Below are positions 14,146 through 56,218 of a DNA stretch of 64,000 bases, in pieces. The position numbers and the translations under genes are program-made. Below the pieces are notes generated by a model that saw only the letters and a program-made list of their open reading frames with translations, did no database searches and was not told the origin of the DNA. Source of the DNA: a virus (Duplodnaviria > Heunggongvirae > Uroviricota > Caudoviricetes); the IMG/VR virus record IMGVR_UViG_3300034102_002845; one strand, 5' to 3'. Position 1 is the stretch's first letter. The number at the start of each line of letters is the position of its first letter.

Positions 14146-15255
14146 ATGGAAATAAACCTGCGCCACTTTCTAATCGACTGGTTAAACTACCGTGTCGAGA
14201 CCGCTTTTGAAGCACTCGCTGAACACGACATTCGTGTTGCTCGCGACGAACGTTACCCTGCTCTCTACAACTTGAAGTACGGCAGTGTAATGGCGGACAA
14301 GGCACTGCCGATCGTTCGTGCCTGCCGTGGTGCCGTAGTCGAACTCGTTGACGATGGTACGGGCTCCCCGTACTTTCGGCTGGTTGCGTACGCCTTCGAT
14401 CGCTTTTTCAACGTTGGCGAGGGGTATGCCGCTGAGATTGATTGGTCCACTGCCCGTGTAGCTGAGAAGTATGACGGGTCTCTGATCAAGTTGTTTAGCT
14501 ATAAGGGGGATTGGGTAGTTTCAACCTCCGGTTCAGTCGCTGGTTCCTCGGAAGTAGGAACCACGGGTCGCTCCTTCTCCGAGTTGTTTTGGCACGTGTT
14601 TGACGAAGTTGGCTACGAGCGGGTGGACCTGGACCCTAATTTCGTGTATATCTATGAATTGTGCCACAAAGACAACAAAATTGTTGTAGACTACGAGACT
14701 CCCCTTTTACCTCTCTTAACTGTCCGTAGCGTAATAGATGACCTGAACGAAAAGGATCTCAAGTACTTTGAGAACCGATTCAATCTCGCTCAGACCTACG
14801 ACCTGCGCTCACATGAAGCTGTAACCCAGTTTGTAAACGACTCTTCTCGTGGTACCGCTGAAGGCGTAATTATTGTCGACGGAAACGGAAACCGCCAGAA
14901 AGACAAGTCCAACGTCTACTGTCAGTTGCACAGGGTTAAAGGAAACGGAGAACCGGATTTCTCCGAGCTTTTCCTGAACGACGACTTGGAAGAGTTTCTG
15001 CTTCACTTTCCCGAGTATCGTAGGGGTTTTGACGTTCACCTGCGTTCCATCGAAGTGATGGAGAGTGCGGTGAGCGAGAACATGAGGGCTCACAACCATC
15101 TTAACCAGAAGGATTTCGCTCAAGCCGTACTTGCCGAGTCAAAAGAACTTTCTGGAGCATGCTTTGCGATTCGATCCGGCAAAGTCGGATCCTTTGCAGA
15201 GTGGCTCGAAGGTTTAACCCCGAAAAAGCTCGACGTTTTGCTCGGAATTTCCTGA
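14146..15255 (+). CDS. RNA ligase, T4 Rnl1 (RnlA)-like
   Basis: Motif I EKYDGSL (compare T4 Rnl1 KEDGSL), then AEGVIIVDGNGNRQKDKSNVY (motif IV EGhh plus motif V lysines) about 150 aa downstream. Length 369 aa, similar to Rnl1. Confidence 0.6.
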   Translation: MEINLRHFLIDWLNYRVETAFEALAEHDIRVARDERYPALYNLKYGSVMADKALPIVRACRGAVVELVDDGTGSPYFRLVAYAFDRFFNVGEGYAAEIDWSTARVAEKYDGSLIKLFSYKGDWVVSTSGSVAGSSEVGTTGRSFSELFWHVFDEVGYERVDLDPNFVYIYELCHKDNKIVVDYETPLLPLLTVRSVIDDLNEKDLKYFENRFNLAQTYDLRSHEAVTQFVNDSSRGTAEGVIIVDGNGNRQKDKSNVYCQLHRVKGNGEPDFSELFLNDDLEEFLLHFPEYRRGFDVHLRSIEVMESAVSENMRAHNHLNQKDFAQAVLAESKELSGACFAIRSGKVGSFAEWLEGLTPKKLDVLLGIS

Positions 15256-19254: not shown

Positions 19255-20418
19255 ATGTTCACATCTAAACCTCCTTCAAGCCTAACCCGTGGAATAATTG
19301 ACACTTTTCCCGCAATAGCAGACGATACTTTTTTCACGACCCAGAAGAGGATAAAACTTGGGTTCGACCCGACCTCAAACTTTTTGCATCTGGGGCATTC
19401 TGTACTTCTTCGTAAGCTACGGACTTTTCAGGACCAGGGCCACATTCCCGTTGTCATTATTGGTGACTTCACTGCAAGAATAGGGGACCCCACGGGAAAG
19501 TCCTCGGTAAGAAAGCAACTTTCAAAAGAAGAAGTAGATTCCAACATTGACAGCTTCATTACAGCAATATCACGCTTCGTAAACCTGGAAAAATGTGAGC
19601 TGGTTCTCAACTCTAGCCATTTAGAGTGCCTACACTTGTCAGACATTGTTAAACTTCAGTCCATAACAACTGTACAGCAAATGATTGCAAAGCAAGATTT
19701 TGCACACCGCATTGAGTTACAAACTCCGATTAGGCTACACGAGTTTATGTACCCTTTGCTCCAAGGGTACGACAGTTTTCATGTAGAGTCGGACGTAGAG
19801 CTCGGTGGCACTGACCAGAAATTCAATGTTGGCTTGGGTAGAGAGGTTCAAAAACATTTCGACTCACCGGTCCAGCAAGTTGGTATGCTAATGCCAATTC
19901 TACCGGGCACCGACGGAGTGCAAAAAATGAGCAAAAGTCTGAACAATGCCATTGGACTCGACGAACACCCACTTCAAATGTTCTCTAAACTTGAGAAGGT
20001 TCCGGACCAATTGGTTAACGATTACATTACACTCCTCACCGACTGCAACCTGGATCAGTTTCCGGAAAATCCTCGAGAAAGACAGAAGCGAATGGCCGTA
20101 GAAGTCGTCTCCACCTTCCATGGAAGGGAGAAAGCTCTGAAGGCACTGAAAGACTCCGAGGCCCTTGTTTTCTCACAGACAATTGAAGTTAACGTGCCGG
20201 AAGTTTCGACTAAGGGAGTGGATTTTCCCTGCCGTCTAGCTACCATCCTAAAAACACTCAATTTGGTAGAAAGCACAAGCGAGGCTCGACGTAAAATAAA
20301 GGCAGGCTCTGTAAAAGTTGACGGGGTTGGGGTTACTGACGAAAACCTGACCATTGAGTCTGTCTCGAAGGGTGTTATTGTTCAACTGTCGAAAAAAGAC
20401 TTTTTTAAGTTGGTGTGA
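19255..20418 (+). CDS. tyrS: tyrosyl-tRNA synthetase (class I aaRS with C-terminal S4-like domain)
   Basis: GFDPTSNFLHLGHSVLL (compare E. coli TyrRS GFDPTADSLHLGHLVPL), ELGGTDQKFN, KMSKS motif KMSKSLNNAI, and C-terminal S4-like SEARRKIKAGSVKVDGVGV. ATG 19 nt after the cassette -10 box. Confidence 0.75.
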   Translation: MFTSKPPSSLTRGIIDTFPAIADDTFFTTQKRIKLGFDPTSNFLHLGHSVLLRKLRTFQDQGHIPVVIIGDFTARIGDPTGKSSVRKQLSKEEVDSNIDSFITAISRFVNLEKCELVLNSSHLECLHLSDIVKLQSITTVQQMIAKQDFAHRIELQTPIRLHEFMYPLLQGYDSFHVESDVELGGTDQKFNVGLGREVQKHFDSPVQQVGMLMPILPGTDGVQKMSKSLNNAIGLDEHPLQMFSKLEKVPDQLVNDYITLLTDCNLDQFPENPRERQKRMAVEVVSTFHGREKALKALKDSEALVFSQTIEVNVPEVSTKGVDFPCRLATILKTLNLVESTSEARRKIKAGSVKVDGVGVTDENLTIESVSKGVIVQLSKKDFFKLV

Positions 20419-26271: not shown

Positions 26272-27393
26272 ATGGCAAACATTGAACGCAAACTCGCCTC
26301 CGTCCGAAAAGTAACGGAGATCCGACCAATCCCAGACGCCGACGCAATTGAGTGCGCCATCGTGGGAGGTGGCTGGCCCGTTGTCGTGAAGAAGGGGGAG
26401 TTCCAAGCTGGTGATCTTGCAATCTATTTCGAGATTGACTCGTGGATTCCCCACGAACTTGCCCCGTTCTTGTCCAAAGGGAAGGAACCAAGGGAGTACA
26501 ATGGAGTGAAGGGGGAGAGGTTGAAAACCGTCCGGCTCCGTGGTCAAGTCTCCCAGGGTCTCCTACTTCGCTTCTCGGACATCTCTCCAAGCTTCTACGT
26601 TGTTTCGCTAGCTGAACCTTATGGGGGGAGGGGATCTCTCCGAGTTGATGAGTGTGTGTGGCAAGAAGGCGAAGACTTCACTCTAGAGTTTGGTATTCAA
26701 AAGTGGGAGGCCACGGTCCCCGCTTGCCTTGCGGGACAAGTTCGTGGAAACTTCCCGAGTTTTTTGGTTAAGAGTGACCAAGAGAGATGTCAAAATATCG
26801 TGAGAAAAATCTTCGAGGAGCACAAGGAGGAAACCTACGAAGTTTCTCTGAAGCTGGACGGGTCTTCCTGCACCATTTATGCCCGAGACGGGGACAGTGG
26901 CGTGTGTAGTCGCAACCTAGACCTTAAGGAAACAGAAGGAAACAGCTTCTGGAAGGCTGCTCGAGAACAAGGTGTAATTGACGCCTTGCTGACCTATAAT
27001 AAGGAAACCGGTCGCAACATTGCTCTTCAGATGGAGCTGTGCGGTGAAGGGATTCAAGAAAACCAAGAAGGAATCAAAGGACAACGGCTTTTTCTTTTTG
27101 ACGTCTTCGACATCGACACTCAGACCTACATGAAGCCGGGGCAGCGACTTGTTTTCCTTGACGAGGTTTTGACTGAGCTTGGGGCCAAGTTGGAACACAC
27201 TCCCATTATTGACCTTCGAACTTACGTTGCCGGACGATTCGCCAACCTTGACGAGCTACTTGCTTATGCAGATGGTCCGTCTATGAACCCAAAAGTCAAG
27301 CGTGAAGGTGTGGTGTTCAAATCGTACGACTCCGCGTTCTCCTTCAAGGCCATTAGCAACGAGTGGTTGCTGTGGAAAGGGAAGAAAGGGTGA
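26272..27393 (+). CDS. RNA ligase, DraRnl/Rnl5-type (N-terminal OB-like domain plus nucleotidyltransferase)
   Basis: N-terminus VRKVTEIRPIPDADAIECAIVGGGWPVVVKKGEFQAGDLAIYFEIDSWIP. Motif I EVSLKLDGSSCTIY, motif III LQMELCGEGI, motif IV KREGVVFKS, and C-terminal lysines. Confidence 0.6.
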   Translation: MANIERKLASVRKVTEIRPIPDADAIECAIVGGGWPVVVKKGEFQAGDLAIYFEIDSWIPHELAPFLSKGKEPREYNGVKGERLKTVRLRGQVSQGLLLRFSDISPSFYVVSLAEPYGGRGSLRVDECVWQEGEDFTLEFGIQKWEATVPACLAGQVRGNFPSFLVKSDQERCQNIVRKIFEEHKEETYEVSLKLDGSSCTIYARDGDSGVCSRNLDLKETEGNSFWKAAREQGVIDALLTYNKETGRNIALQMELCGEGIQENQEGIKGQRLFLFDVFDIDTQTYMKPGQRLVFLDEVLTELGAKLEHTPIIDLRTYVAGRFANLDELLAYADGPSMNPKVKREGVVFKSYDSAFSFKAISNEWLLWKGKKG

Positions 27394-30072: not shown

Positions 30073-30810
30073 ATGAATAACGTTACTTCCAATTTTGCCT
30101 TCATCGGCGACCTACACTCTCAGAGAAAGCCCTTGCTCAAAGCACTCGATTATTGCAGAGGAGCAAATTGCACACCAATTTTCCTCGGAGACCTTTTTGA
30201 CTCTCGTATGGAAACAAGCGACAGCGCAGGTGTGTATAAAGCTGTCAGCCAAGCCGTGGAAGAAGGGGCGATTGTGCTTCGAAGCAACCACCAAAACAAG
30301 CTGGAGCGTTACGCTCGCGGGAACAACGTGGTTCTTAAAGAGGGCTTTGAGCGTACTGTGCAAGACTTCTCAGACGCAGGTATCCCTATTGAGGAAGTCT
30401 CTGCCTGGCTGGAAACTTTTCCCTACGGGGTTGCCTTGCGAGATTCCCGAGGGACCGAGTACCGTTGTGCTCACGCGATGTTTCCGAAGTGGGTTCTTGT
30501 TCCGCCGTCTTACACAGGAGTATACCGTGTGAATGAGGTTACGAGAAAAGCCAAGGACTACATGCTATTTGGTCCTCGCCGTCCCGGTGCGGTGTACCCT
30601 CAAGATGAGACTCGTGTCTTTTGGTGGGAAGAGGAATGCGATCGGACCTGGGTTCGTGTCGCAGGACACTACCACCACGTTCACACGAGCGAGAGGAGCC
30701 TGGTTCTCGACGGTCAGATGGGTGGTAGCACTCAGAAAAGTTTTGACCCGGCGCACGCTCGCCTCTGTGTGTGGAACCTGGAAGAACAAACCCTTGTTCA
30801 GTTTGCTTAG
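30073..30810 (+). CDS. calcineurin-like metallophosphoesterase (PrpE/ApaH-like)
   Basis: FIGDLHSQ, IFLGDLFDSR, RSNHQNK are the GDxH / GDxxDRG / GNHE-type metallophosphatase motifs. ATG 6 nt after the -10 box. Confidence 0.65.
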   Translation: MNNVTSNFAFIGDLHSQRKPLLKALDYCRGANCTPIFLGDLFDSRMETSDSAGVYKAVSQAVEEGAIVLRSNHQNKLERYARGNNVVLKEGFERTVQDFSDAGIPIEEVSAWLETFPYGVALRDSRGTEYRCAHAMFPKWVLVPPSYTGVYRVNEVTRKAKDYMLFGPRRPGAVYPQDETRVFWWEEECDRTWVRVAGHYHHVHTSERSLVLDGQMGGSTQKSFDPAHARLCVWNLEEQTLVQFA

Positions 30811-31408
30811 TCTCCCAACCCTTAACTTATGAACCCCAACCCCTACGACACTGCCTTACATGGTAAGGCGTTTTCCCTTGGCGATGCAATTCAGACTCGA
30901 CTATGGGACCTTTCCGTGCAATGTCATCTCCTCCTTGATCGCGGACAGTTTGACCTCGTAAGGCTCCTTCAAGCTGAGGGCGAAGCTCTCGCTAAGGCCT
31001 ACGAAAACCAAGAAACCTTCCTTGTAACACACTTTAACCGAAATGAAAGCTGACAGAGTAGTTCGAGACGGCAAAGTCGCCGTGTTATATAGCCCAGGCT
31101 TTGGCGCTGGTTGGAGCACATGGAACTCCAGTGATGGTGAGGGTAACGACGGTCTCGAAAACTTTCTGTTGTTCGACCCCACCCTGGTGCACATGGTTGA
31201 AGACGACCGCCGAGACTCCATTCCAGAGTACGTTGAGTCCGTTTACCCCGAGTCCTACTTTTACGGTGGTGGCGCAGGAAAACTTTCAATTTACTGGGTA
31301 CCTGAAGGGGTTATGTTTAGGGTTACGGACTACGACGGGTTTGAGTCCCTTGAGTTTCGTGACGCTGAAGACTGGAAAATTGCTTAGCTCCCTACCCTGT
31401 AACCCCAC

Positions 31409-31570
31409 ATGCTAATACGAGTTCTTGGTGTCGCTGCTGGAGCATCGCTACTCTTGCTCATTCTTCTTTTGAGGGGACTTCCAGTGGTGTTCTTCCTCAA
31501 AATTGTACCGCTCGCACTCCTCCTTTGTGTTGCATGTGCGTTTATTTACGCCGGTGTAACTAAAGACTAG
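31409..31570 (+). CDS. small membrane protein (53 aa)
   Basis: MLIRVLGVAAGASLLLLILLLRGLPVVFFLKIVPLALLLCVACAFIYAGV. Found by eye. Confidence 0.3.
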   Translation: MLIRVLGVAAGASLLLLILLLRGLPVVFFLKIVPLALLLCVACAFIYAGVTKD

Positions 31571-31615
31571 CTCAGCCTTAATTCCAAACCACTCACATTC
31601 AAAATCACATTCAAA

Positions 31616-32434
31616 ATGTCACTCGCAAAAATTGGTATCGGCGTTGGTGCCGGTGCTCTCCTTCTCGCCCTCACCGCTGGTCAGTTCACTACGATCAACA
31701 CCGGTGAAAACGGGCTCTATGTCGGTTTCGACGGCCAAGTGAAAAACGAGGTTCTGACACCAGGCATTAAGTACGACGGGTTCGGATCCATTAAGGTGTT
31801 CAACACCCGAAAGATCACGGTAACTGCAAACGACCTTCGCCCGAAGACCAAGGACAACACCATCATGAAAGAGATGGATGTTACTGTAACATACAGCATC
31901 AACCCTAACTCCCTTTACGAGTTCTTCACCAACTACGATCTGACTAATCACGGGATTGCCGAAAATGGTCAGCTTCAACTAATGTCCAGCTACATTTCCA
32001 GGTTGATTACATCCGCCGTAAATCAGTCTGTCGATGAGTTCCCCGCACTAGCTGTAAACAGCAGCCTAGAACAGATTCAAGACACAATCAAAACCAACCT
32101 GTCCGAAGCTCTTCGAAAGAACGGCCTTGACGGTAGAATAACCGTCGACTCCACCATCGTAGGCAAAGCTGACTTACCGGACGACTTGGTGGCATCGGTG
32201 AATCGTGTAGTTGCCGCCCAATCTGGCCTAAAAGAGCAGCAAGTTAAGACTGAAACAGCTCAACTTAAGGCCGAGGAAAACAAGGCACTGGCATCCACAG
32301 TGACTTCGCAGTCTCTTGAGTACCAACGTCTTGAGGTTCTCCGTGAAGCCATGAAAAACGGCAGTATTCAGAAAATTCTGATTAACGGTGCCAACGTGCT
32401 CTCCCTTTCTGAGGGTGTTTTTAACACGAAGTGA
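31616..32434 (+). CDS. SPFH/band-7 (prohibitin/HflKC-like) membrane protein
   Basis: N-terminal TM (IGIGVGAGALLLALTAG), then a beta-rich PGIKYDGFGSIKVFNTRKITVT segment and a long coiled-coil (QSGLKEQQVKTETAQLKAEENKA). Confidence 0.45.
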   Translation: MSLAKIGIGVGAGALLLALTAGQFTTINTGENGLYVGFDGQVKNEVLTPGIKYDGFGSIKVFNTRKITVTANDLRPKTKDNTIMKEMDVTVTYSINPNSLYEFFTNYDLTNHGIAENGQLQLMSSYISRLITSAVNQSVDEFPALAVNSSLEQIQDTIKTNLSEALRKNGLDGRITVDSTIVGKADLPDDLVASVNRVVAAQSGLKEQQVKTETAQLKAEENKALASTVTSQSLEYQRLEVLREAMKNGSIQKILINGANVLSLSEGVFNTK

Positions 32435-33745: not shown

Positions 33746-35287
33746 TTGGACGGGAGCAAAGTTGATACAGCTTTAATTTGTATCCAAACAAACAATCAAC
33801 TTGAGAAAATGACAACCTTTTTAAACGCACTCGAAAACGAGTTTAACCAAACTACCACTGCAAACGGTGCAAAGGCATACAAGTCCACCGAGTCTAAGTG
33901 CCTGGACCTTTTTGGAAAGATTGCAGCTTGCCGTGACAACATCAGCGAAGCAACTCGCCTATTCAATCTTGCTTATGCCGTCGCCCCTGAGACCGCAACT
34001 CGAATCTTATTTTGGGCACGCGACATTCGTGGGGGCCAGGGAGAGCGAAAGATCTTTCGAGAAGTTTTTAAGGAACTCGTCCGCAATGACACCGCTGTCG
34101 GTGAGAAACTCGTCGGGCTAATTCCACAGTACGGGCGCTGGGACGACCTTGTTGCACTCGAAGGAACTTCCGTGTGGAACGTTGCACTCGAAGTGATTAA
34201 AGAACAGCTTAACGCCGATCTAAACACGGAAATTGGAAAGTCCGTTTCACTTCTGGCAAAGTGGCTGCCTTCCATTAACGCATCGAGCCAAGAATCCAAG
34301 CGAGTTGGCCGCCTTATCGCCAAGGAAATGGGTTGGACCGAGAGGCAGTACCGCAAGGCTCTGACTGCCCTCAGGTCACAAGTCAAGATTGTTGAGCAGC
34401 CAATGTGTGCCCGTGAGTGGGAAAGCATTGACTACGGTGTGTTGCCCTCTCGCGCAGGGTTTATGTACCGCAAAGCCTTTGCAAAGCGCGACGGCAACCG
34501 TTACCAATCCTACCTTGACTCGGTAGAGAAAGGTGAGGCAAAAATCAATGCCGGTACGATCTACCCTTACGAAATCGTGCACAAGTACCTTTACGGGGGT
34601 GAAAAGAGCGATCAGACTCTAAACTTAATGTGGGAGGCTCTACCCAACTACATGGAGGGAGAGCAGCTAAACGGCCTTGTAGTTGCTGATGTCTCGGGGT
34701 CTATGGGCCAGAACGGCGGCATGCCCATGGCGGTTTCAATCTCGCTGGCGATGTACATCGCTGAGCGTAACACCGGGGCATGGAAGGATAAGTTCCTAAC
34801 CTTCTCAGGAAGCCCGAAGCTGCAGTCTGTCACCGGGAGAAACATTGCTGAGCGTGTTAATAACCTTAGTCGAGCCAAGTGGGACATGAATACAGACCTG
34901 CAAGCAGTCTTCGATCTTGTGTTGGCTACCGCAACGAGGAACCATATTCCTGAAGGGGAAATGCCTCGCAAGCTCATCATTGTCTCAGACATGCAGTTTG
35001 ATTCCTGCTGCAGAAACAACTCAGTGACAAACTTTGAGGCGGTGCGAATCAAGTATGCTCAAGCAGGGTATTCCTTGCCGGAACTTGTCTTCTGGAATGT
35101 TAGCTCTAGCGGCAACGTACCTATGAAAATGCATGACACGGGAACTTGCCTGGTCTCCGGGTGCAGCCCTTCAATCCTGAAAGCTGTGCTTACTGGCGGG
35201 GTAATTACGCCTGTAGGGGTTATGCGTGACGCTGTTTACACTGAAAGGTACGACGCTGTCGGTGCCGTATTTGCTGAAGGAGCATGA
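33746..35287 (+). CDS. von Willebrand factor A (vWA) domain protein with large N-terminal helical domain (possibly TROVE/DUF2828-like)
   Basis: MIDAS motif LVVADVSGSMG at residue ~310, downstream T/D ligands (KLIIVSDMQFD). The first 300 aa are helical. An alternative start is at 33809. Confidence 0.55.
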   Translation: MDGSKVDTALICIQTNNQLEKMTTFLNALENEFNQTTTANGAKAYKSTESKCLDLFGKIAACRDNISEATRLFNLAYAVAPETATRILFWARDIRGGQGERKIFREVFKELVRNDTAVGEKLVGLIPQYGRWDDLVALEGTSVWNVALEVIKEQLNADLNTEIGKSVSLLAKWLPSINASSQESKRVGRLIAKEMGWTERQYRKALTALRSQVKIVEQPMCAREWESIDYGVLPSRAGFMYRKAFAKRDGNRYQSYLDSVEKGEAKINAGTIYPYEIVHKYLYGGEKSDQTLNLMWEALPNYMEGEQLNGLVVADVSGSMGQNGGMPMAVSISLAMYIAERNTGAWKDKFLTFSGSPKLQSVTGRNIAERVNNLSRAKWDMNTDLQAVFDLVLATATRNHIPEGEMPRKLIIVSDMQFDSCCRNNSVTNFEAVRIKYAQAGYSLPELVFWNVSSSGNVPMKMHDTGTCLVSGCSPSILKAVLTGGVITPVGVMRDAVYTERYDAVGAVFAEGA

Positions 35288-35970: not shown

Positions 35971-36013
35971 TCATGTATGGAAAACACCCCAGTACACAGC
36001 ATCTTCTCGGGGG

Positions 36014-36367
36014 ATGCCTCCTTTCTCCGTTAGCCATAAAGCAATGTGGAAGTTTAACAAACCCCTGAGTCAATTGCGCTCTTTTCGTGACAGTTTACTG
36101 AGGGACGACCAACACACCTACGCCACAAGGCTTGGAGAAATTGTGGAGTCCCTCGAAGAGTGGTACGAAGGTGCCCTGGAGTTGAACGAAGAAGCAAGTG
36201 GAGCAGGTGGCTTTGATGAGCTAAGCAGAGTGTACAGGGAGGCCAACTCAATCTACGAGTCTAAGCTCTCCGATGAAGCCAAGTATGACCTTATTTTCTC
36301 CAAGAAGATATCACAAAAGTCCCCTTCTCGTGGTACGACCCTGACACATCTTACGAGAAGGACGTAA
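36014..36367 (+). CDS. hypothetical protein
   Basis: 117-aa ORF directly upstream of the tRNA block. Confidence 0.3.
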   Translation: MPPFSVSHKAMWKFNKPLSQLRSFRDSLLRDDQHTYATRLGEIVESLEEWYEGALELNEEASGAGGFDELSRVYREANSIYESKLSDEAKYDLIFSKKISQKSPSRGTTLTHLTRRT

Positions 36368-36543
36368 GGTACTTTATGAACGCCTTTCGAGAGTACATGG
36401 GTGGTGCCCCGCGATAGGCCCCGAGTAAGGGTCTCTGCTTGATTCCGTTTACCCCTAGCACTTCCAACCTATGATACGGATGTGGAGCTCAAGGTTCCAC
36501 TCCTCGCCCCCTTAACCTCCACCCAGCAAAGCGGTGCGAAAAC

Positions 36544-36664
36544 CGAAGAGTAGCCAAGTGGTTAGGCAGCGGTAATGCAAAAAGATTACCTAGCTTAGGT
36601 AATTCAGCAACTACCCAATACGCAAAAGGAACCGCCATACGCAAGTTCGAATCTTGCCTCTTCG
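36544..36664 (+). ncRNA. tRNA-like gene with a ~50-nt extra region between the anticodon-arm-like hairpin and the T-arm
   Basis: Perfect 7-bp acceptor stem (CGAAGAG/CTCTTCG), D-arm GCC-AAGTGGTTA-GGC, hairpin GGTAAT-gcaaaaag-ATTACC at the anticodon position, ~50-nt insert, T-arm GCAAG-TTCGAAT-CTTGC. Confidence 0.4.
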
Positions 36665-37137
36665 ATTGTTTCTCTATGGGAAACGTAGATAGTTCAGCGA
36701 TTTACCCTAACTCTCTTGGGAAAAACAACTATCTAGTTAAACCCAAACTTTATCTCCATAATGGTAGTAAAAGACCTTTGTTCTCGATCCAAGTAATTTG
36801 CCAAGCGAACGTAGACCCAACAAAAAGACATGACACCTACTGAAGCAGGTTTTGACGGTGACAAGGGCATACGGTTAGACGTGCCGAGTAAAGGGATAGG
36901 GCATGACGTATTGTATCGACTGAAGCGAGGTAAGACCCTACCCAAAAACTCCCAAAACAAATCGTTAAAGAACATGCTGATCTGGCATTACCCTGACGAT
37001 AGCGACTCTAAGCTCTTGTTCTGTAACTCTGACGGGGAGTGGTTTAATTTAACCTTTGAACCCACTAAAATTGGAGAGTAGCTCAAGGGCTAAGAAAAAC
37101 TTTCAATATTGCTCCAGGTAGTTTTCGGAGCAAATAC

Positions 37138-37252
37138 GGGACCGTAGCTCAACTGGTAGAGCACGAAAAGTTATCTTGACAAAGATACATCAGCAATTAA
37201 ATTACCTCTTTTAAAGGCGCGGTTGCAGGTTCGAGTCCTGCCGGTCCCATTC
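37138..37252 (+). tRNA. tRNA-like gene with a ~35-40 nt insertion in the anticodon region (intron-containing, split or degenerate tRNA)
   Basis: Acceptor GGGACCG/CGGTCCC plus discriminator A. D-arm GCTC-AACTGGTA-GAGC. T-arm GCAGG-TTCGAGT-CCTGC. The anticodon region is replaced by ~50 nt containing hairpin TATCTT-gaca-AAGATA, and AAAAG/CTTTT could form an anticodon-stem-like helix. Confidence 0.45.
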
Positions 37253-37263
37253 CCATTTTTACT

Positions 37264-37806
37264 ATGACTAACAGCAAGACCTCATTTCTCCTAACTCAAA
37301 ACCACCTGAAACTGCTGAGAAGAATGCACGTTGGGTGGAGCAACTGTGAATTCGGTGCTCCGGAAATAGACCCGAAAAGACCGTATGGCAACAGTTGGGT
37401 TATCGGAGACATACACGAAATTCTGACTGGAGAAGACCTAGAAGAATTGACCGAGTCACAGGAAGAGGAGTACAGGCAACTTCACGAACAAACTCAAACA
37501 GCCCTCCAAATCATTCTCTCTACGGGGAAGTTTGAGGAAGGTTTGTACATGCTTATTGAACCGTATTCTTCTACTTGGGTGCGGAAAGCCATGATCAATT
37601 CCATGGCCTACAAAGACTACACAGCCAGTATGGTCTTCGATACTGAAGACAAGATTATTGTTGGTCGTGTCCTAGACATCGACGACATTATCTCGTTTCA
37701 CGGCGAAACGATAGCTGAATTTGAATCCAACTTTCATGCAGCCATCGAAGACTATCTAGCCGCATCCCAGGAACTTGGCTCTTCGCCGGAAAAGCCCGCA
37801 AGTTAA
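37264..37806 (+). CDS. protein with C-terminal HicB-like (UPF0150) antitoxin-type domain
   Basis: YTASMVFDTEDKIIVGRVLDIDDIISFHGETIAEFESNFHAAIEDYL fits the HicB N-domain pattern (y.a.v..d....y.a...dlpg....GeT.eEa..n..eAie.yl). Flanked by the tRNA-like gene and a degenerate copy of its 3' half. Confidence 0.45.
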   Translation: MTNSKTSFLLTQNHLKLLRRMHVGWSNCEFGAPEIDPKRPYGNSWVIGDIHEILTGEDLEELTESQEEEYRQLHEQTQTALQIILSTGKFEEGLYMLIEPYSSTWVRKAMINSMAYKDYTASMVFDTEDKIIVGRVLDIDDIISFHGETIAEFESNFHAAIEDYLAASQELGSSPEKPAS

Positions 37807-37824
37807 GGTACTTCGGGTGTCTAA

Positions 37825-37860
37825 GGTTCGGTTTCAGGTTCGAGTCCCGCCGGTTCCATT
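37825..37860 (+). repeat. degenerate direct repeat of the 3' half (T-arm + acceptor) of the tRNA-like gene at 37138-37252
   Basis: GGTTtCAGGTTCGAGTCCcGCCGGTtCCATT matches GGTTgCAGGTTCGAGTCCtGCCGGTcCCATT at 37222-37252. Confidence 0.5.
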
Positions 37861-38588
37861 TTCACACGAACAATGAACAGAGTTTCAATTGCGATCTTGG
37901 CGCTTTGCACCGCTTTATCTGGCAACGATGCATTGTGCAAGACTCAAATGGTTGTGACAGGCAGGAACGCAGAAGAAGTACAAAGAAATGCGTTCAGGGC
38001 CAAAATGAGCTACCCGCTCAGGCCGCTAAAGTGTAGTCAACGGTGCTCCCAATTGTGGGAAAGAGATTGATTGTGATGTGGGGACTCTCAGCCCTAAAGG
38101 AAGGGCGGTCTCCCGCCTTGCCTTCCCCCTAGTAAAGGCGGCATGATTATAGCGTGTAAGCGATTCAAATGACAAACCGTTCCCGGTCCGCTCAGGCGGT
38201 TCTGAACACTGTCTTAAATGAAGCGGAGCCTCGATCCGTGCAGTTACAAGCGATAGCAGATGCCGCTGCCGTTCTCCGAGTCGCTGCGGATCAAGTGGTG
38301 CCACCTGACCCCTGCGGCAACGACTGCTGCATCACCCAATGCGAGCAGATCCGCGCCGAACTCTTCGCCATCACCACCGAACTAGAAGGGCGGTTACCCG
38401 CCTTGCCTTGCCTTTTCTAGGAAAAGCTAGCCATAGGGTACCGGGCCCAAGGGTCCCGCTCCTAAGATCTCACCACGGGGAATGGGCGGTTTCCCGCCCC
38501 CCTCTCCCTTGCCGTGCACACGCTAAAGTTAATCAGCTCACCTTCCACCGTCAACCATCCAATGAAATACCGCATTCGACACGAAGTA

Positions 38589-38878
38589 TGAAACCCGAAA
38601 ACCCGTACGTTCGCGCTGTAGTTGGCCTTGTGTTCTTTACTGCGGCACTCGGACTAGTAATTCAAGTGGTGGCGGCAATTGACGTGGCCATCCGTAGAGC
38701 CGATGAGCATGCCGCCAAGACTGAGAGAGAAGAAGAGAAAGTCCTAGCTGAAAAGTGCAAGTTACTGAGCAATTCGGCTCGTGCCTCCGTGTACATAACC
38801 CAAGAGCCCTTGAGCCTCTACATTTGCAGCGACCAGGGTGTCTCAACTTACTTTGTGACACGTAGGCTGTTCCCCTAG
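38589..38878 (+). CDS. hypothetical membrane protein
   Basis: TM helix AVVGLVFFTAALGLVIQVVAAI. First ATG after a cluster of cassette-like hairpins at 38388-38530. Confidence 0.3.
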
Positions 38879-38956
38879 GTTTGCTCAGTTGGGCAAAGCC
38901 CCGCACCTTATACCTGCGCGACTCTTTCCAAACAAACTACCCCTTTGAACGAAACA

Positions 38957-39493
38957 ATGACCACAACACTGACGCCAGCTGAAGCCACTCGGGTTGCTCA
39001 CCGGATGTGCACATCACAAGGGCTCCCTCCGCTCCCGCATATCCCGGCGAATTTCCTACTCGCCCTTGACGCCTTAGAGGAGTGCACGTACAGAAACGTA
39101 GAAGACTTGGGAGGGTTGACACCCGAACAACAGGAAGCCAATCTCCTCCATGTCGCACTATGGATTGTTGAGCGCGACCGGAAAAACCTCCACATGGAGA
39201 GGTGGCACAAGCTCTGGTTTGACACTGACAGAACAACTTACGAAGATTGGTCCTTCTGGAAGGAACCATCGAACGAAGCAGGTTTTCACACGTGCGGGAC
39301 CACTCACTGTCTGGCGGGCTTCGCGCAGGTTATGGGAGGGGTTGGTGCTTTTACTCTCACACCTAAAGAAGCGGGAGAGGTGCTTCTCGGATCGAATGCA
39401 GCAGGCCACTTCTTCGACACTGACGAACAAGCACTTGTTTTCCTGGAACAAGTTATTGAACGTAATTCCCATTCAGTACACCCCACTGAGTAG
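38957..39493 (+). CDS. paralog-family protein, copy 3
   Basis: LPPLPHIPANFLLALDAL...LTPEQQEANLLHVALWIVERD...CGTTHCLAGFAQVMGG...LLGSNAAGHFFDTDEQALVFLEQVIERN. Confidence 0.5.
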   Translation: MTTTLTPAEATRVAHRMCTSQGLPPLPHIPANFLLALDALEECTYRNVEDLGGLTPEQQEANLLHVALWIVERDRKNLHMERWHKLWFDTDRTTYEDWSFWKEPSNEAGFHTCGTTHCLAGFAQVMGGVGAFTLTPKEAGEVLLGSNAAGHFFDTDEQALVFLEQVIERNSHSVHPTE

Positions 39494-40933: not shown

Positions 40934-41022
40934 GGGCGCGTGGTGTACGGTGCACAGGGACCATTATAAAGTCCTCTCCGGCAGATTACCGGCTAGTTAG
41001 GGTTCGACTCCCTACGCGCCTA
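40934..41022 (+). tRNA. type II (long variable arm) tRNA with atypical 9-nt anticodon loop; identity unresolved
   Basis: Acceptor GGGCGCG/CGCGCCT (G-U), D-arm GTGT-ACGGT-GCAC, anticodon stem GGGAC/GTCCT enclosing CAUUAUAAA, variable hairpin CCGG-cagatta-CCGG, T-arm TAGGG-TTCGACT-CCCTA. Confidence 0.55.
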
Positions 41023-41112
41023 CTTAGTTTCAACTAGCCGAAAACTCGTTAAAGAACCCACACAAAGGCCATCTTCGGTGAACGACACAGGAGTGGCCCA
41101 CCACGGTGACAA

Positions 41113-52529: not shown

Positions 52530-54017
52530 ATGACTTTTGAGACAGAAAATTTAACGAAGGGTTCTAAAGCCGCTTCACCCGGAAATGAAAAATGCAACGA
52601 TAACTGTTCTGTAAGTGAAGCCGTTGTCTGTGATTTACGCTCTCGCCAAGAGCCCCGCCGAATCGACCTCGACAAACTATACGAGTGCGACCCGAAAGAC
52701 TACATTGGCTATTTCGCCGACGAAACTTCTTACGACAATCTTATTCAAGAAGACTGCGACGTTTATGTGGGCGGAGTGAAAGTTGTTGCCTTTCGTAAGG
52801 CACTTTTTCCAAAGCTGCGCGATGGTTCGAAAGGTAGCCCGGAAACTTGGAAATACTTTCGCTGGGCAGCAAGAGACTTGTACTCCGACCAACGAGGTCT
52901 AGTTGCGGGTAAAGAACTAACTACTCAACTCGAGATAAGGGTAACAAACGGTATTCTAAACTTCTTCAAGAAGGCGATGGCCGGTCAAGTCACTGACGTA
53001 GAAGAGGCACTAAAAATTGCTTCTCTCTCCCCCGACATGTCAAAGCTCACTGTCCGAGTGAATGATGTTAAAAAGGACTTCCCAGAAATTGAGAAAGCTT
53101 TAGAACCTATCGAGAAGGAACTTCGCAAGAAAACGCTGAGCGAAGAAAGAAAAGTAGAGCTGAAGGAAGCGAAGGGTAGGGAACTTGCGAAGTGGTTCCC
53201 GACTTGGCTGTCTGAGACTTGGAGTGCGTCTAAGGACAAGGTTTCTGAGGCGAAACGTGCCGACGACAGATACGTGGGAAAACAATACCGTTCAAACAAG
53301 TGCTATTCCAACGTGATTGGTGCTTTTGATAGGGGTGCACGTAACCCCTACGGTCGACTAACTGCAACTACCGTTCGAGATTACGAAGGGTTCGTCAGTC
53401 ACACTGATATTTATCAAACCGCTTGTTCCGCACTCAAAGAGACCCTAAACACTCCTGAAAACCCTCGGTGGGACCGCCTTAACGAACGGTTCAGTAACGT
53501 GAAAGACCCGCACTACAACCTGTTCGGGACGGTATTCACTGCCCTAACGCTAAACTGGAATTTCCGCTGTGCGATGCACTACGACGGAAATAACTGTGAA
53601 GGGGGTATCGCCGTTCTTACCGCAATTACTCAGGGCGAATATGACGGCCATTACCTTGTGTTCCCTGAGATCCGTTGCGCTTTTGACCTTCGCGACGGAG
53701 ATTTCATTGCAGGCGACAACCAGGGCTTGATTCACGGCAACACCGCGATGATCCCGAAAACTCCGGACGCTGAACGAGTGTCGTTCGTTTTCTATTCACG
53801 AGAGCGCATGACCGTTCTTGACGACATGGAGTGCGAGGACTGCCGCCGAGATTTCATGCGATACGCGGCAGACAACCACAAGGAATACGGAAAGGGTCAC
53901 AAGACCTGGAATGGTGTCTGGAGCGGAATGTGGAAATCACCGGAATGGATGTCGTATAAAGCCGAACACGGCATGGAACGTTGCTCAAACACCAACTACT
54001 GGGGCACCGAGAATTGA
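52530..54017 (+). CDS. large protein with C-terminal 2OG-Fe(II)-oxygenase-like HxD...H core
   Basis: AMHYDGNNCEGGIAVL ... GDNQGLIHGNTAM with ~55-aa spacing. The N-terminal 300 aa are uncharacterised. Confidence 0.35.
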   Translation: MTFETENLTKGSKAASPGNEKCNDNCSVSEAVVCDLRSRQEPRRIDLDKLYECDPKDYIGYFADETSYDNLIQEDCDVYVGGVKVVAFRKALFPKLRDGSKGSPETWKYFRWAARDLYSDQRGLVAGKELTTQLEIRVTNGILNFFKKAMAGQVTDVEEALKIASLSPDMSKLTVRVNDVKKDFPEIEKALEPIEKELRKKTLSEERKVELKEAKGRELAKWFPTWLSETWSASKDKVSEAKRADDRYVGKQYRSNKCYSNVIGAFDRGARNPYGRLTATTVRDYEGFVSHTDIYQTACSALKETLNTPENPRWDRLNERFSNVKDPHYNLFGTVFTALTLNWNFRCAMHYDGNNCEGGIAVLTAITQGEYDGHYLVFPEIRCAFDLRDGDFIAGDNQGLIHGNTAMIPKTPDAERVSFVFYSRERMTVLDDMECEDCRRDFMRYAADNHKEYGKGHKTWNGVWSGMWKSPEWMSYKAEHGMERCSNTNYWGTEN

Positions 54018-54035
54018 GTCCTAAAGACTACCAAA

Positions 54036-54533
54036 GTGGCATTTAACGAACGAAACACAGCATTACTAACAATGGACACAAACAAACAGCTTAACGGTGG
54101 CGATGCGGAGCGGCAAGTTGCCTCGGGGATTAATGACCCCCGTGAATCAACAACACCCATTACAGACGAACAAATGTTCGGTCGCACCCGTACAAACTCT
54201 GCGGGAATAACTTACTCCCCCCGAGACATCGACGCGGAGCGGCAAGTTGCCTCAGGGATTAGTGACCCCCGTGAAGCACCAACCGCCATTACAGTGGAAC
54301 TCCCTGTAAACTTCGCTGAGGCTTTTCGATCGCTCGCTGAAAGAGAGGGGTTGTCGGAGGGTGACCTTATTGTACGATCGCTCGGGCTCTACTCCGTTGC
54401 ATCTCAAGCCGAGAGTGAAGGGTACGGACTGACGTTTACTCGTATTGAGGGAACCAACGACCTGACCGCCAAGGAAGCAATTCGCATCGAAGATGAGCCT
54501 GTTTCAAACTTGTTTATTCCGGGTAAGAGGTGA
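54036..54533 (+). CDS. repeat-containing protein
   Basis: Tandem DAERQVASGI(N/S)DPRE(S/A)(T/P)T(P/A)IT units flanking a copy of QMFGRTRTNSAGITYSPRDI. Confidence 0.35.
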   Translation: MAFNERNTALLTMDTNKQLNGGDAERQVASGINDPRESTTPITDEQMFGRTRTNSAGITYSPRDIDAERQVASGISDPREAPTAITVELPVNFAEAFRSLAEREGLSEGDLIVRSLGLYSVASQAESEGYGLTFTRIEGTNDLTAKEAIRIEDEPVSNLFIPGKR

Positions 54534-54577
54534 GACGGTTTCCCGCCCTTGTCTCTGCAGCGTATACACGGTAAAAT
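54534..54577 (+). promoter_or_regulatory. hairpin plus promoter cassette
   Basis: -35 ttgtct 54549-54554; 17-bp spacer; -10 taaaat 54572-54577; ATG 54587. Confidence 0.5.
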
Positions 54578-54586
54578 TAGCCACAG

Positions 54587-55180
54587 ATGGAAATATACTT
54601 TAGCACAGACGTTGAGACCGACGGACCGATCCCCGGACCTAACAGCATGCTTTCGCTCGGGTCGGCTGCGTTTTCTCCTGAAGGAGAAATCTTGGGCACC
54701 TTCTCTGTGAACTTAGAGACCCTCCCCGGAGCCGAACCGGACCCCACTACCCAAGCGTGGTGGGAGTCTCACCCGGAGGCCTACAGAGCAACCAGAGAGA
54801 AGGTTTTACCTGCCGACCGAGCCATGCTCGCCTTTTCTCAATGGGTCAGTGCTACAGCAAGCTCGTTCTCTCAAGCGAATGTTCGAAAAGTTTCTCCAGT
54901 GTTCGTGGGTTTTCCTGCAGGGTTTGACTTTCTTTTCGTGTATTGGTACCTTATTCGGTTCACTGGACAGTCCCCATTTAGCTTCTCGGCGCTTGACGGT
55001 AAGACCTATGCTATGGCCTTGCTCAAAAGAGGATACCGGGAGTCCACCAAACGGAACTACCCGAAAGAGTGGTTTCCCCTCGAAAACAAGCATACTCACA
55101 TCGCTGTAGAGGATGCTATTGAACAAGGTCGTATTTTCTGCAATATGCTTCGATCCAATCTTGACTCTACGTGTCAATGA
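54587..55180 (+). CDS. DEDDh 3'-5' exonuclease (DnaQ/RNase T/oligoribonuclease-like)
   Basis: Exo [12 protein letters not shown], Exo II region, Exo [14 protein letters not shown] (H-x4-D). Confidence 0.7.
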
Positions 55181-55365
55181 CTAACAAAGTTAAAGAGTGC
55201 TGCGAAAAACTTAGCTTGTCCCTGAAGTTAAGGGGAGAGGGAAACGAGGACGCGGAGGAGGCCTTGCTCGACGAGCTTGACCTTCTTTGGCTGAAGTTGT
55301 CGAGAGAAGAGACCCAGTGGGTTAATGCCAATATACTGTCGTTGTTACCTAACTAATTACCCACC

Positions 55366-56130: not shown

Positions 56131-56218
56131 CCACCAGATAACACAGTCGGAGATAAGAGGACGCAGCAGACGTCTACTCTTGACGCTCCAACAACAGTCA
56201 CATCAACTGCACTCAAAT

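What the first reader, a model, noticed from the sequence alone, without database searches (positions are those of the whole stretch)
37138..37870. tRNA-like gene with an intervening sequence in the anticodon region, followed by a HicB-domain ORF and then a degenerate repeat of the tRNA 3' half
At 37138-37252 there is a clean acceptor stem, D-arm and T-arm, but the anticodon position is occupied by about 50 nt containing its own hairpin. It is far too short for a group I intron. Immediately downstream lies the ORF at 37264-37806, whose C-terminus is HicB-like. Right after that ORF, the sequence GGTTtCAGGTTCGAGTCCcGCCGGTtCCATT (37830-37860) repeats the 3' half of the tRNA-like gene (37222-37252). 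This looks like the scar of an element that inserted into the 3' end of a tRNA gene, so a mini-integrative cassette carrying the HicB-like gene. Alternatively the locus produces a tRNA that needs unconventional processing, which is interesting given the phage's own ligase and kinase set.
Basis: seen in the sequence. Interest (0 to 1): 0.65.

Follow-up and report, generated by a model that had tools for sequence, protein, structure and literature searches.

The report
Phage tRNA carrying a Ro60-protein handle
The "interrupted tRNA" is most likely not a gene with an intron or an integration scar but a complete lysine tRNA with a built-in docking arm for a Ro60-like protein encoded just upstream; this pairing recurs in many large phages, sometimes as circularly permuted tRNA genes, and I found no description of it.

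Summary
All four observations are real. Window 37138-37249 scores as a tRNA. By hand it is a tRNA-Lys(UUU) cloverleaf with 39 nt (37166-37204) inserted between nucleotides 28 and 29 of the anticodon stem. The ORF at 37264-37806 ends in a HicB piece, and 37823-37860 repeats the tRNA 3' part.

The insert is a conserved module: an A-rich linker, a covarying 6-9 bp hairpin, the invariant CAGCAAUUA, and an A/U linker. It sits at the same tRNA position in dozens of phage contigs and in many isoacceptors. It also occurs split across circularly permuted tRNA genes. A second copy lies at window 36544-36665.

The module is tightly linked, same strand and usually 0.1-2 kb downstream, to a DUF2828/DUF7788 gene (window 33746-35287). 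The predicted fold of that protein matches only Ro60/Rsr proteins over its full length. This is the Rsr-Y RNA (YrlA) arrangement with a different motif and a full tRNA.

The best reading is a Y-RNA-like tRNA chimera (about 0.6). Genuine splicing is not excluded (about 0.2).

The "cassette" idea fails. Relatives keep the ORF's N-terminal domain next to the tRNA without HicB or the repeat. The HicB piece is 218 bp, 100% identical to a hicAB locus assembled from a metagenome, and fused in frame.

The parts
33746..35287 (+). Gene for a Ro60-like protein (Pfam DUF2828 + DUF7788; helical N-terminal part plus vWA-like C-terminal part). It is the proposed protein partner of the two tRNA-like RNAs downstream.
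36544..36665 (+). Second tRNA-like RNA with the same module. It has a type-II-like D arm and an intact anticodon stem (GCGGU/ACCGC). In place of the 7-nt loop there are 57 nt. No canonical anticodon loop can be recovered.
   Evidence: Rfam tRNA 44.7 bits with permissive filters. It is 120/122 identical to L004:1954-2075. Relatives show a compensatory UGC/GCA to UGU/ACA change flanking the module.
36584..36613 (+). Module of the second RNA: hairpin GAUUACCUA-GCU-UAGGUAAUU (36584-36604) followed by the motif variant CAGCAACUA (36605-36613).
37138..37249 (+). The flagged feature: a tRNA-Lys(UUU)-type cloverleaf with a 39-nt module inserted between nucleotides 28 and 29 (5' strand of the anticodon stem). 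No CCA is encoded.
   Evidence: Rfam tRNA 48.5 bits. In-silico removal gives CGCCU-CUUUUAA-AGGCG. The 28:42 pair changes from G-C to U-A in L013.
37166..37204 (+). The conserved module. It consists of the A-rich linker AAAAGU (37166-37171), the hairpin UAUCUU-GACA-AAGAUA (37172-37187), the spacer CAU, the invariant CAGCAAUUA (37191-37199) and the A/U linker AAUUA (37200-37204). It is the proposed docking site for the Ro60-like protein.
   Evidence: The same module occurs at the same tRNA position in 32 distinct interrupted tRNAs and, split, in 35 permuted genes. Hairpin covariation: 6 of 6 pairs change on both sides and 91% of cells are paired.
37264..37806 (+). Fusion ORF. Residues 1-107 are a phage domain of unknown function that normally stands alone (about 105-115 aa). 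Residues 108-110 (RKA) join the two parts. Residues 111-180 are the N-terminal, toxin-binding domain of HicB; the DNA-binding C-terminus is missing.
37586..37803 (+). Captured hicB fragment: 218/218 nt identical to hicAB locus L024 and 215/217 to L023, both from metagenome assemblies. The match includes 5 nt upstream of the hicB start codon.
   Evidence: The source contig carries HicA-HicB in a toxin-antitoxin island. The closest genomes (92% aa) are freshwater Prochlorococcaceae MAGs.
37823..37860 (+). Degenerate direct repeat of the 3' part of the 37138 RNA (33/38 identical to 37214-37251). Its T stem is broken. It is part of the 37583-37871 indel that is absent from L013.
   Evidence: The exact sequence is found only in close relatives. 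It is not found next to bacterial hicB genes.
14146..15255 (+). T4 Rnl1-type RNA ligase gene. This is context and is not shown to act on the RNAs.
   Evidence: Pfam RNA_lig_T4_1, E=1.4e-13.
26272..27393 (+). Second RNA ligase gene (PHA02142 OB fold + RNA_ligase). This is context and is not shown to act on the RNAs.
   Evidence: Pfam hits at 4.6e-28 and 1.4e-21.

Best explanation
Window 37138-37249 encodes a Y-RNA-like non-coding RNA built from a whole tRNA-Lys. A conserved 39-nt module branches from the anticodon stem on two flexible A/U-rich linkers. The module is a hairpin followed by single-stranded CAGCAAUUA. It serves as the docking site for the Ro60-like ring protein encoded 1.9 kb upstream on the same strand (33746-35287). 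A second such RNA lies at 36544-36665.

The particle would work like bacterial Rsr-YrlA. The protein holds the handle. The tRNA body, here including a real anticodon arm, engages proteins that recognise tRNAs. Candidates are processing and repair enzymes, or host anticodon nucleases for which it could act as bait.

Shown here: the tRNA fold, the conserved covarying module, its fixed position in the tRNA, the Ro60-type fold of the protein, and the strand-specific gene-RNA linkage. Inferred: physical binding, that the RNA stays unspliced, and the biological role.

The neighbouring ORF is a separate matter. A phage protein became fused to the toxin-binding half of a recently captured HicB. It is plausibly an anti-HicA device (inference).
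For: (a) tRNA fold. Rfam tRNA 48.5 bits, with a compensatory 28:42 change across the insert in L013.

(b) The module is a family. It gave 32 distinct interrupted tRNAs of many isoacceptors, with the module always after nucleotide 28 or 29. It also gave 35 distinct circularly permuted tRNA genes. In those, the 3'-half leader carries the 3' helix strand plus the motif, and the 5'-half trailer carries the complementary strand. Examples are CTGTCTTG/AAGACAG, GCATCTTG/AAGATGC and GGAGTCCAG/TGGACTCC.

(c) Covariation. 92.8% of cells pair against 61.9% in shuffles and 40-47% when partners are slid. All 6 hairpin pairs change on both sides. There are 32 distinct helix sequences.

(e) Linkage, RNA to protein. 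The DUF2828 gene is the top ORF cluster in the flanks, present in 44 of 98 loci at 99% down to about 21% identity, always on the same strand and often adjacent.

(f) Linkage, protein to RNA. Of 79 loci picked by the protein, 47 carry the module, all on the gene's strand and none on the other. For homologues of at least 60% identity it is mostly 130-700 nt past the stop codon, often in 2-4 copies. Loci at 44-46% identity carry permuted versions with motif variants.

(g) This is the published rsr-YrlA pattern: the RNA lies within 4 kb on the same strand, has a tRNA-like domain in T, acceptor, D order, and has a short conserved motif near its 5' end (PMC4201824). Phage Ro60-Y RNA pairs are known (PMC12135203).

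(h) Against precise splicing. Linker lengths vary, 5-19 nt on the 5' side and 4-11 nt on the 3' side, with no conserved junction nucleotides. Where flanks were available, the module-bearing tRNA duplicates a normal tRNA with the same anticodon in 4 of 18 arrays: L164, L185, L182 and L218. Some copies, including window 36544 and the U33G loop in L025/L240, have non-canonical loops.
Against: No binding or expression data exist. The docking role is inferred from linkage and from analogy.

The motif CAGCAAUUA differs from the known Ro-binding motifs (GGUCCGA, GNCGAAN0-1G). No Rfam Y RNA or YrlA model matches, even at E<=5.

Pfam does not call the protein TROVE. A sequence profile finds no Ro60 in the PDB. 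The structural model is only moderate (pLDDT 67, TM about 0.4).

Most copies keep a perfect 5-bp anticodon stem and a canonical 7-nt loop with U33 and a purine at 37 once the module is removed in silico, and they carry many different anticodons. Permuted genes often encode CCA. That is what real, spliced tRNAs would look like. A mere scaffold would not obviously need these features.

The phage encodes two RNA ligases.
Confidence: 0.6

Rival explanations
1. A genuine new class of protein-dependent tRNA intron. The 39-nt module is cut out and the halves are joined by the phage's own RNA ligases, giving a working tRNA-Lys. The leader and trailer of the permuted genes are removed the same way. The Ro60-like protein would act as the recognition or chaperone subunit.
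For: In-silico removal restores canonical anticodon arms in most interrupted and permuted genes, with many different anticodons. There is a compensatory change across the insert. Permuted genes have a 7-bp acceptor stem, a discriminator base and often CCA plus a spacer, as pre-tRNAs do. Rnl1-like and Rnl2-like ligases and metallophosphatases are encoded in the window. In many arrays the module-bearing tRNA's anticodon is not represented by a regular tRNA within the sequence available.
Against: No endonuclease candidate was found among 31 window ORFs scanned. I saw no bulge-helix-bulge at the junctions. Linker lengths vary and junction nucleotides are not conserved. The module-bearing tRNA is redundant with a normal isoacceptor in four arrays. 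Some members have no recoverable anticodon loop. The spliced-junction sequence was found in none of 241 million metagenome records. That last point is weak evidence. The tight coupling to a Ro60-type protein has a ready precedent in unspliced Y RNAs.
Confidence: 0.22
2. The tRNA-3' repeat and the HicB ORF are the scar of a small element that integrated site-specifically into the 3' end of the tRNA gene.
For: A real 38-nt direct repeat of the tRNA 3' part lies downstream. The DNA in between includes recently acquired bacterial sequence. Gene order around the tRNA-like gene differs among relatives: in L025 the small ORF that follows the repeat in the window sits directly after the tRNA-like gene.
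Against: L013 and L025 have the tRNA-like gene next to the ORF's N-terminal domain without the repeat. The indel relative to L013 is 37583-37871, and its left end lies inside the ORF. There is no integrase. No tRNA lies next to hicB in the 80 genome loci or the two metagenome contigs L023 and L024. The hicB piece is a truncated, in-frame fragment and not a cassette. Illegitimate or microhomology-driven recombination fits better: AGGTTCGA is shared by the hicB stop region and the T loop. That last point is my inference.
Confidence: 0.07
3. A dead tRNA gene disrupted by a short insertion (a promoter, a MITE-like element or junk) with no function of its own.
For: The insert contains TTGACA-16 nt-TAAATT, matching 10 of 12 sigma-70 consensus positions. 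ARAGORN does not call a tRNA here.
Against: The -35-like hexamer is not conserved in relatives, which have CTTGTACAAG or CTTGGATAAGG. Promoter-like hits in the region are no more frequent than in shuffles, 6 against 6.3. The module is conserved with covariation across phages whose partner protein has diverged to about 40% identity. It always has the same position and orientation, and there is no target duplication.
Confidence: 0.04

Closest known systems
Bacterial and phage Ro60 (Rsr)-Y RNA particles, especially YrlA (Chen et al. 2014, PMC4201824; Thermus phage phiLo Ro60 with Yrl1/Yrl2, PMC12135203)
   Same: A ring-type Ro60-fold protein with a vWA domain. One to several small RNAs are encoded within a few kb on the same strand. 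The RNA combines a protein-binding module (a helix plus a short conserved single-stranded motif) with a tRNA-like domain. The permuted relatives found here have the same T arm, acceptor, D arm order as YrlA. M. smegmatis YrlA is even cut by RNase P and receives CCA.
   Different: The protein belongs to DUF2828/DUF7788 and is not recognised as TROVE by Pfam. The motif is CAGCAAUUA, not GNCGAA or GGUCCGA, and no Rfam Y RNA model matches. The RNA keeps a complete tRNA, including a canonical anticodon stem-loop with a real anticodon. In the window the tRNA is not permuted, and the module is an insertion at position 28/29 with free acceptor ends.
Circularly permuted and split tRNA genes of Cyanidioschyzon merolae, other algae and some archaea (recalled from my own knowledge; my literature search found none reported for bacteriophages)
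   Same: In relatives the 3' half precedes the 5' half. Leader and trailer pair with each other. The break lies in the anticodon arm.
   Different: Those genes use a bulge-helix-bulge motif and the archaeal/eukaryal splicing endonuclease. Here there is a hairpin plus a sequence motif and a linked Ro60-like gene. The window's own gene is collinear, not permuted.
Bacterial tRNA group I introns
   Same: An intervening sequence in the anticodon arm of a bacterial-type tRNA gene.
   Different: The insert is 39 nt, against more than 200 nt. There is no Intron_gpI match in the window. The position is in the stem and not in the loop.
HicAB type II toxin-antitoxin systems
   Same: Residues 111-180 of the ORF are a HicB N-terminal domain, 100% identical to a real HicB encoded next to HicA.
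   Different: There is no HicA in the window. There is no DNA-binding C-terminal domain. The fragment is fused to an unrelated phage domain.

Membership tests
Ro60-Y RNA (Rsr/YrlA-type) ribonucleoprotein | Protein with the Ro60 architecture: a HEAT-repeat (TROVE) ring plus a vWA domain | tested here: met
Ro60-Y RNA (Rsr/YrlA-type) ribonucleoprotein | Small RNA gene(s) within about 4 kb of the protein gene on the same strand | tested here: met
   In the window the RNAs start 1.26 and 1.85 kb past the stop codon, on the same strand. Of 79 protein-selected loci, 47 carry the module on the same strand and none on the opposite strand. The gene is present in 44 of 98 RNA-selected loci.
Ro60-Y RNA (Rsr/YrlA-type) ribonucleoprotein | RNA contains a tRNA-like domain (T arm, D arm, acceptor-like stem) | tested here: met
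   Rfam tRNA scores of 48.5 and 44.7 bits. Cloverleaf covariation is shown.
Ro60-Y RNA (Rsr/YrlA-type) ribonucleoprotein | Known Ro-binding motif (GGUCCGA, or GNCGAAN0-1G) or a match to Y RNA/YrlA covariance models | tested here: not met
   The conserved motif is CAGCAAUUA. No Rfam family other than tRNA matches 36480-37900 at E<=5.
Ro60-Y RNA (Rsr/YrlA-type) ribonucleoprotein | The RNA is physically bound by the protein | not testable with these tools
   This needs EMSA, RIP or a structure.
tRNA gene with an endonuclease/ligase-type (bulge-helix-bulge) intron | Bulge-helix-bulge at the exon-intron junctions, and a splicing endonuclease gene | tested here: inconclusive
   No BHB is evident by inspection. 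The junctions are variable A/U-rich linkers. No tRNA-intron endonuclease appeared among 31 window ORFs scanned against Pfam, but many ORFs were not scanned.
tRNA gene with an endonuclease/ligase-type (bulge-helix-bulge) intron | Removal of the insert restores a canonical tRNA | tested here: met
   CGCCU-CUUUUAA-AGGCG in the window. The same holds in about two thirds of the other copies (21 of 32 interrupted genes and 22 of 35 permuted genes). It does not hold for 36544-36665.
Group I intron in a tRNA | Catalytic core of more than 200 nt; match to Intron_gpI | tested here: not met
   The insert is 39 nt, and there is no Intron_gpI hit in the window.
Integrative element at a tRNA 3' end (att repeats) | Direct repeats bound the acquired DNA, an empty site in relatives matches those bounds, and an integrase is present | tested here: not met
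   L013 lacks 37583-37871 and not 37253-37829. No integrase lies between the repeats.
HicAB toxin-antitoxin module | HicA toxin gene adjacent, and a full-length HicB with a DNA-binding domain | tested here: not met
   No HicA in the window. HicB is truncated after residue 71.

The most novel reading that the evidence does not exclude
The module is a true intervening sequence. In that case large phages carry their own protein-dependent tRNA splicing pathway. A Ro60-like recognition protein, an unknown nuclease and the phage RNA ligases would mature both interrupted and circularly permuted tRNA genes. This would be the first such pathway in the bacterial world, and it would give T4-type RNA ligases a housekeeping substrate.
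Probability: 0.2. Interest if true: 0.95.

Novelty: new variant of a known kind. Interest (0 to 1): 0.78.

Why it matters
If this is right, three things follow.

First, it assigns a function class, Ro60-like RNA-binding ring, to DUF2828/DUF7788. That family has thousands of "hypothetical" members in metagenomes.

Second, it defines a new, easily searchable RNA class: tRNA plus hairpin plus CAGCAAUUA. Standard tRNA finders miss or mis-call it. This affects tRNA counts in large phages.

Third, it documents circularly permuted tRNA genes in bacteriophages.

It also makes one question directly testable. The question is what Ro60-Y RNA particles do during infection. Here the RNA carries a genuine anticodon arm whose anticodon changes between close relatives. 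That suggests interaction with anticodon-specific factors such as host anticodon nucleases or repair enzymes.

The HicB fusion is a clean example of a phage capturing half of a bacterial antitoxin gene at 100% nucleotide identity.

Tried and rejected
Promoter reading of the insert. TTGACA-16-TAAATT is not conserved in relatives, and promoter-like hits are no more frequent than chance.

Repeated element within the window. The 30-mer is unique. A relaxed scan found only the two copies with a T loop downstream, plus one chance-like hit at 10660 inside coding sequence.

DNA similarity to deposited phages. No match for 36000-39000 in INPHARED.

A first collection pattern (AGATAC-N1-4-CAGCAATTA) returned mostly chance hits.

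Donor of the tRNA 3' repeat. It is not next to bacterial hicB genes. Its exact sequence occurs only in close relatives.

Search for an uninterrupted or spliced version of the tRNA. There were no hits in metagenome contigs.

Function of the ORF's N-terminal domain. There is no Pfam hit and no structural neighbour. It is not consistently linked to the Ro-like gene, occurring in 12 of 79 loci.

A protein alignment mixing HicB and N-domain homologues misaligned and was discarded.

Literature. Searches for permuted or intron-containing phage tRNAs, for DUF2828 and for the motif found no description of this system.

Not done. No covariance model was built. The census rests on an exact 9-mer, or one mismatch, plus a T-loop pattern, so divergent members are under-counted. 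BHB folding was judged by eye only.
Full report
OBSERVATION

The region was read directly. ARAGORN finds three tRNAs in the window and none at 37138. The Rfam tRNA covariance model does match 37138-37249(+). The score is 48.5 bits against a gathering score of 29, with 52 nt replacing 13 model positions of the anticodon arm (repeated).

By hand the molecule reads as follows:
- acceptor 5' strand GGGACCG, then UA;
- D arm GCUC-AACUGGUA-GAGC, then A;
- CG, then 39 nt (37166-37204);
- CCU-CUUUUAA-AGGCG, then CGGUU;
- T arm GCAGG-UUCGAGU-CCUGC;
- acceptor 3' strand CGGUCCC, then A.

Deleting the 39 nt leaves a perfect 5-bp anticodon stem and a 7-nt loop with U33, anticodon UUU and A37. The body resembles bacterial tRNA-Lys; that resemblance is from my own knowledge. 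The insert therefore lies between nucleotides 28 and 29, in the 5' strand of the anticodon stem. It contains the hairpin UAUCUU-GACA-AAGAUA.

The ORF at 37264-37806 exists. Its residues 110-180 match a HicB-like PHROG at E=1.3e-21. The downstream repeat is real: 37823-37860 matches 37214-37251 in 33 of 38 positions.

WHAT THE ORF AND THE REPEAT ARE

A search of 5.8 billion proteins splits the ORF into two unrelated parts. Residues 1-107 belong to a family of stand-alone phage proteins of about 105-115 aa with no annotation. Residues 111-180 are the first 70 residues of bacterial HicB antitoxins and are 100% identical to P0009.

At the DNA level, 37586-37803 is 218/218 identical to a hicB on ENA contig L024 and 215/217 identical to JGI contig L023. 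On L023, hicB follows hicA inside a cluster of toxin-antitoxin genes. The identity stops where the DNA-binding half of HicB would begin. The closest genomic HicB proteins (92%) are in freshwater Prochlorococcaceae MAGs. This hints at the host. No HicA is encoded in the window.

Twelve IMG/VR contigs that are 95-99% identical share the whole arrangement. The more distant relative L013 (85%) has the tRNA-like gene and a 114-aa ORF consisting of the N-terminal domain only. Window 37583-37871 is replaced there by about 30 nt, so both the hicB piece and the tRNA-3' repeat are missing. L025 (76% protein identity) also lacks both and has the two small ORFs in the opposite order.

I read this part as a recent illegitimate capture of half a host antitoxin gene, fused in frame. 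It is plausibly kept because the toxin-binding half of HicB can neutralise a host HicA; that is inference. The N-terminal domain gave a confident model (pLDDT 82) with no structural neighbour.

THE INSERT IS A CONSERVED MODULE

Rfam scans of relatives showed further tRNA hits of 112-118 nt: two in L025 and three in L027. Their sequences carry the same insert in different tRNAs. It has four parts:
- an A-rich linker;
- a hairpin whose sequence changes while pairing is kept;
- 2-4 nt followed by the invariant CAGCAAUUA;
- an A/U linker.

L013 differs from the window by CG..CG to CU..AG at pairs 27:43 and 28:42. This is a compensatory change across the insert.

Sorting the hits gave 32 genuine distinct interrupted tRNAs and 35 distinct cases of a second kind.

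In the second kind, the tRNA 5' half lies 64-71 nt downstream of the motif, directly after the 3' half. These are circularly permuted tRNA genes. The leader of the 3' half carries "..AAGAC-N4-5-ACAGCAAUUA". The trailer of the 5' half carries the exactly complementary strand, and the two strands change together from locus to locus.

Removing the module in silico gives canonical anticodon arms in about two thirds of the copies of both kinds (21 of 32 interrupted and 22 of 35 permuted). The anticodons include Lys, Gly, Pro, Thr, Glu, Phe, Val, Asn, Trp, Tyr, Gln, Arg and Ile. The module always follows nucleotide 28 or 29.

On a 25-sequence alignment the cloverleaf plus hairpin is 92.8% paired. 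Shuffles give 61.9% and slid partners give 40-47%. All six hairpin pairs change on both sides.

The window holds a second copy at 36544-36665, with the motif variant CAGCAACUA. Rfam scores it as a tRNA at 44.7 bits with 57 nt in place of the loop, and no canonical loop can be recovered from it.

THE LINKED PROTEIN

I clustered all ORFs in the flanks of 98 module-bearing loci. The largest cluster, present in 44 loci, is the homologue of window 33746-35287. Identities run from 99% down to about 21%. The gene is always on the RNA's strand and is often directly adjacent.

The reverse test was as follows. Of 79 viral loci chosen by the protein, 47 carry the motif plus a T loop on the gene's strand and none on the other strand. 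For homologues of at least 60% identity the module mostly lies 130-700 nt after the stop codon, often in several copies. Loci at 44-46% identity carry permuted tRNA-like genes with motif variants such as ACAGCUAUU.

INTERPRETATION

This is the genetic signature of Ro60 and its Y RNAs. Chen et al. (PMC4201824) found YrlA RNAs within 4 kb of rsr on the same strand in more than 250 bacteria and in 22 phages. YrlA has a short conserved motif near its 5' end and a tRNA-like domain in the order T arm, acceptor-like stem, D arm. M. smegmatis YrlA is cut by RNase P and receives CCA. A phage Ro60 with two Y-like RNAs has been characterised structurally (PMC12135203). A jumbo-phage survey notes TROVE proteins "with a tRNA-like partner" in cellular organisms (PMC7824862).

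The permuted genes found here have YrlA's topology. The window's gene is a collinear version of the same thing.

I therefore take the 39 nt to be a protein handle and not an intron. Four observations support this:
- Linkers on both sides vary widely in length and lack conserved junction nucleotides.
- In four of 18 arrays with flanks available, the module-bearing tRNA duplicates a normal tRNA with the same anticodon.
- Some copies have non-canonical loops.
- No spliced or uninterrupted version of this tRNA turned up in 241 million metagenome records. This point is weak evidence.

What keeps the splicing reading alive is how tRNA-like these RNAs are. They have canonical anticodon arms and real anticodons, permuted genes often encode CCA, and the window encodes two RNA ligases. 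I put the Y-RNA-like reading at about 0.6 and splicing at about 0.2.

Related contigs carry the same tRNA body with different anticodons. For the GGGGAAU body these are UCC, UAC and CAU. For the GCCGAAA/GCCGAAG bodies they are GUC, GUU and GCC. This suggests the anticodon arm is under changing rather than absent selection. One testable idea is that it serves as bait for, or a sensor of, anticodon-specific host nucleases. This is speculation.

COMPARISON AND NOVELTY

The system works like Rsr-YrlA and passes the fold, linkage and tRNA-likeness tests. It fails the motif and covariance-model test. The protein is not recognised as TROVE by sequence. I file it as a new variant of a known kind.

Seven literature searches found no description of DUF2828-linked tRNA chimeras, of this motif, or of permuted tRNA genes in bacteriophages. 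The library searched is incomplete, so prior description cannot be excluded.

LIMITS

There are no expression or binding data. The protein model is of moderate confidence. The census depends on a near-exact 9-mer and on capped scans, so its counts are lower bounds and the sample is biased towards the canonical motif. The origin of the 3' repeat and the order of rearrangements around 37583-37871 remain unresolved.

Noticed in passing
L164:7587-7700(+), L191(-):2942-3050, L212:9947-10060(+), L247(-), L185(-), L175, L223, L242 and others: Circularly permuted tRNA genes inside phage tRNA arrays. The 3' half comes first, then often CCA plus a 3-8 nt spacer, then the 5' half. Leader and trailer are complementary. 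Some have their own TTGATT-17-TATAAT promoter directly upstream (L164, L212, L222, L261).
   Followed up: partly
L025:2373-2490, L192:346-463, L215:1525, L240, L256; L027:6533, L218:3979, L231, L128: The same tRNA body (identical acceptor stems) carries different anticodons in related contigs. For the GGGGAAU body these are UCC, UAC and CAU. For the GCCGAAA/GCCGAAG bodies they are GUC, GUU and GCC. This suggests rapid anticodon turnover in module-bearing tRNAs.
   Followed up: partly
window 40934-41023 (+): ARAGORN calls a 90-nt tRNA-Ile(UAU) with the anticodon at position 32. The Rfam tRNA model does not reach its gathering score there. It may be another unusual tRNA-like gene or a false call.
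   Followed up: no
L242:630-800, L251, L265, L220, L217: Two tandem copies of the helix-plus-motif unit (GUGGAC-N3-ACAGCAA[C/U]UA) lie upstream of one permuted tRNA. The first copy sits inside a larger hairpin. Further ACAGCAAUC-type motifs follow the 5' half.
   Followed up: no
L030 and L031: 4875-5072; L030: 2498-3256: A group I intron (Rfam 53.6 bits) lies downstream of a homologue of the ORF's N-terminal domain, in a phage that also encodes a Thg1-like (tRNA-His guanylyltransferase family) protein.
   Followed up: no
L164:6133-6245; L409:9294-9890: A RAGATH-33 RNA (137.9 bits) and a ROOL RNA (207.7 bits) sit in the same tRNA arrays as the permuted tRNAs or the Ro60-like gene.
   Followed up: no
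window 37586-37803; L268, L269, L273, L281: The captured hicB is closest (92% aa, about 90% nt) to hicB genes of freshwater Prochlorococcaceae MAGs from Lake Mendota. Many of the related viral contigs come from similarly numbered samples. This is a host hint: picocyanobacteria.
   Followed up: partly
P0007, P0035, P0026, P0064 (homologues of ORF residues 1-107): The unknown N-terminal domain (conserved GAPEIDPKRPYGNS) is fused to other C-terminal domains in other phages: WGR (PF05406) in P0035, a region homologous to it in P0007, and a short unidentified C-terminal extension in P0026 and P0064. It seems to act as a carrier for small binding domains.
   Followed up: no
L012:3074-3076 (window about 37341-37461): One close relative has a deletion of about 120 bp inside the ORF's N-terminal domain while keeping the HicB part and the repeat.
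   Followed up: no
window 5530-8093, 19147-20418, 30073-32434, 52530-57046: Gene content typical of a large phage: PRPP synthetase and NAPRTase (NAD salvage), a tyrosyl-tRNA synthetase, a metallophosphatase plus a Band 7/SPFH protein just upstream of the Ro60-like gene, and a TET/JBP dioxygenase with its associated glycosyltransferase (DNA hypermodification).
   Followed up: partly
L025:3700-4310 versus window 37264-38070: Gene order differs. In L025 the small ORF (a homologue of window 37873-38070) directly follows the tRNA-like gene and the N-domain ORF comes after it. In the window the order is reversed, and the small ORF is preceded by the tRNA-3' repeat. This suggests recombination at tRNA 3' ends.
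   Followed up: no
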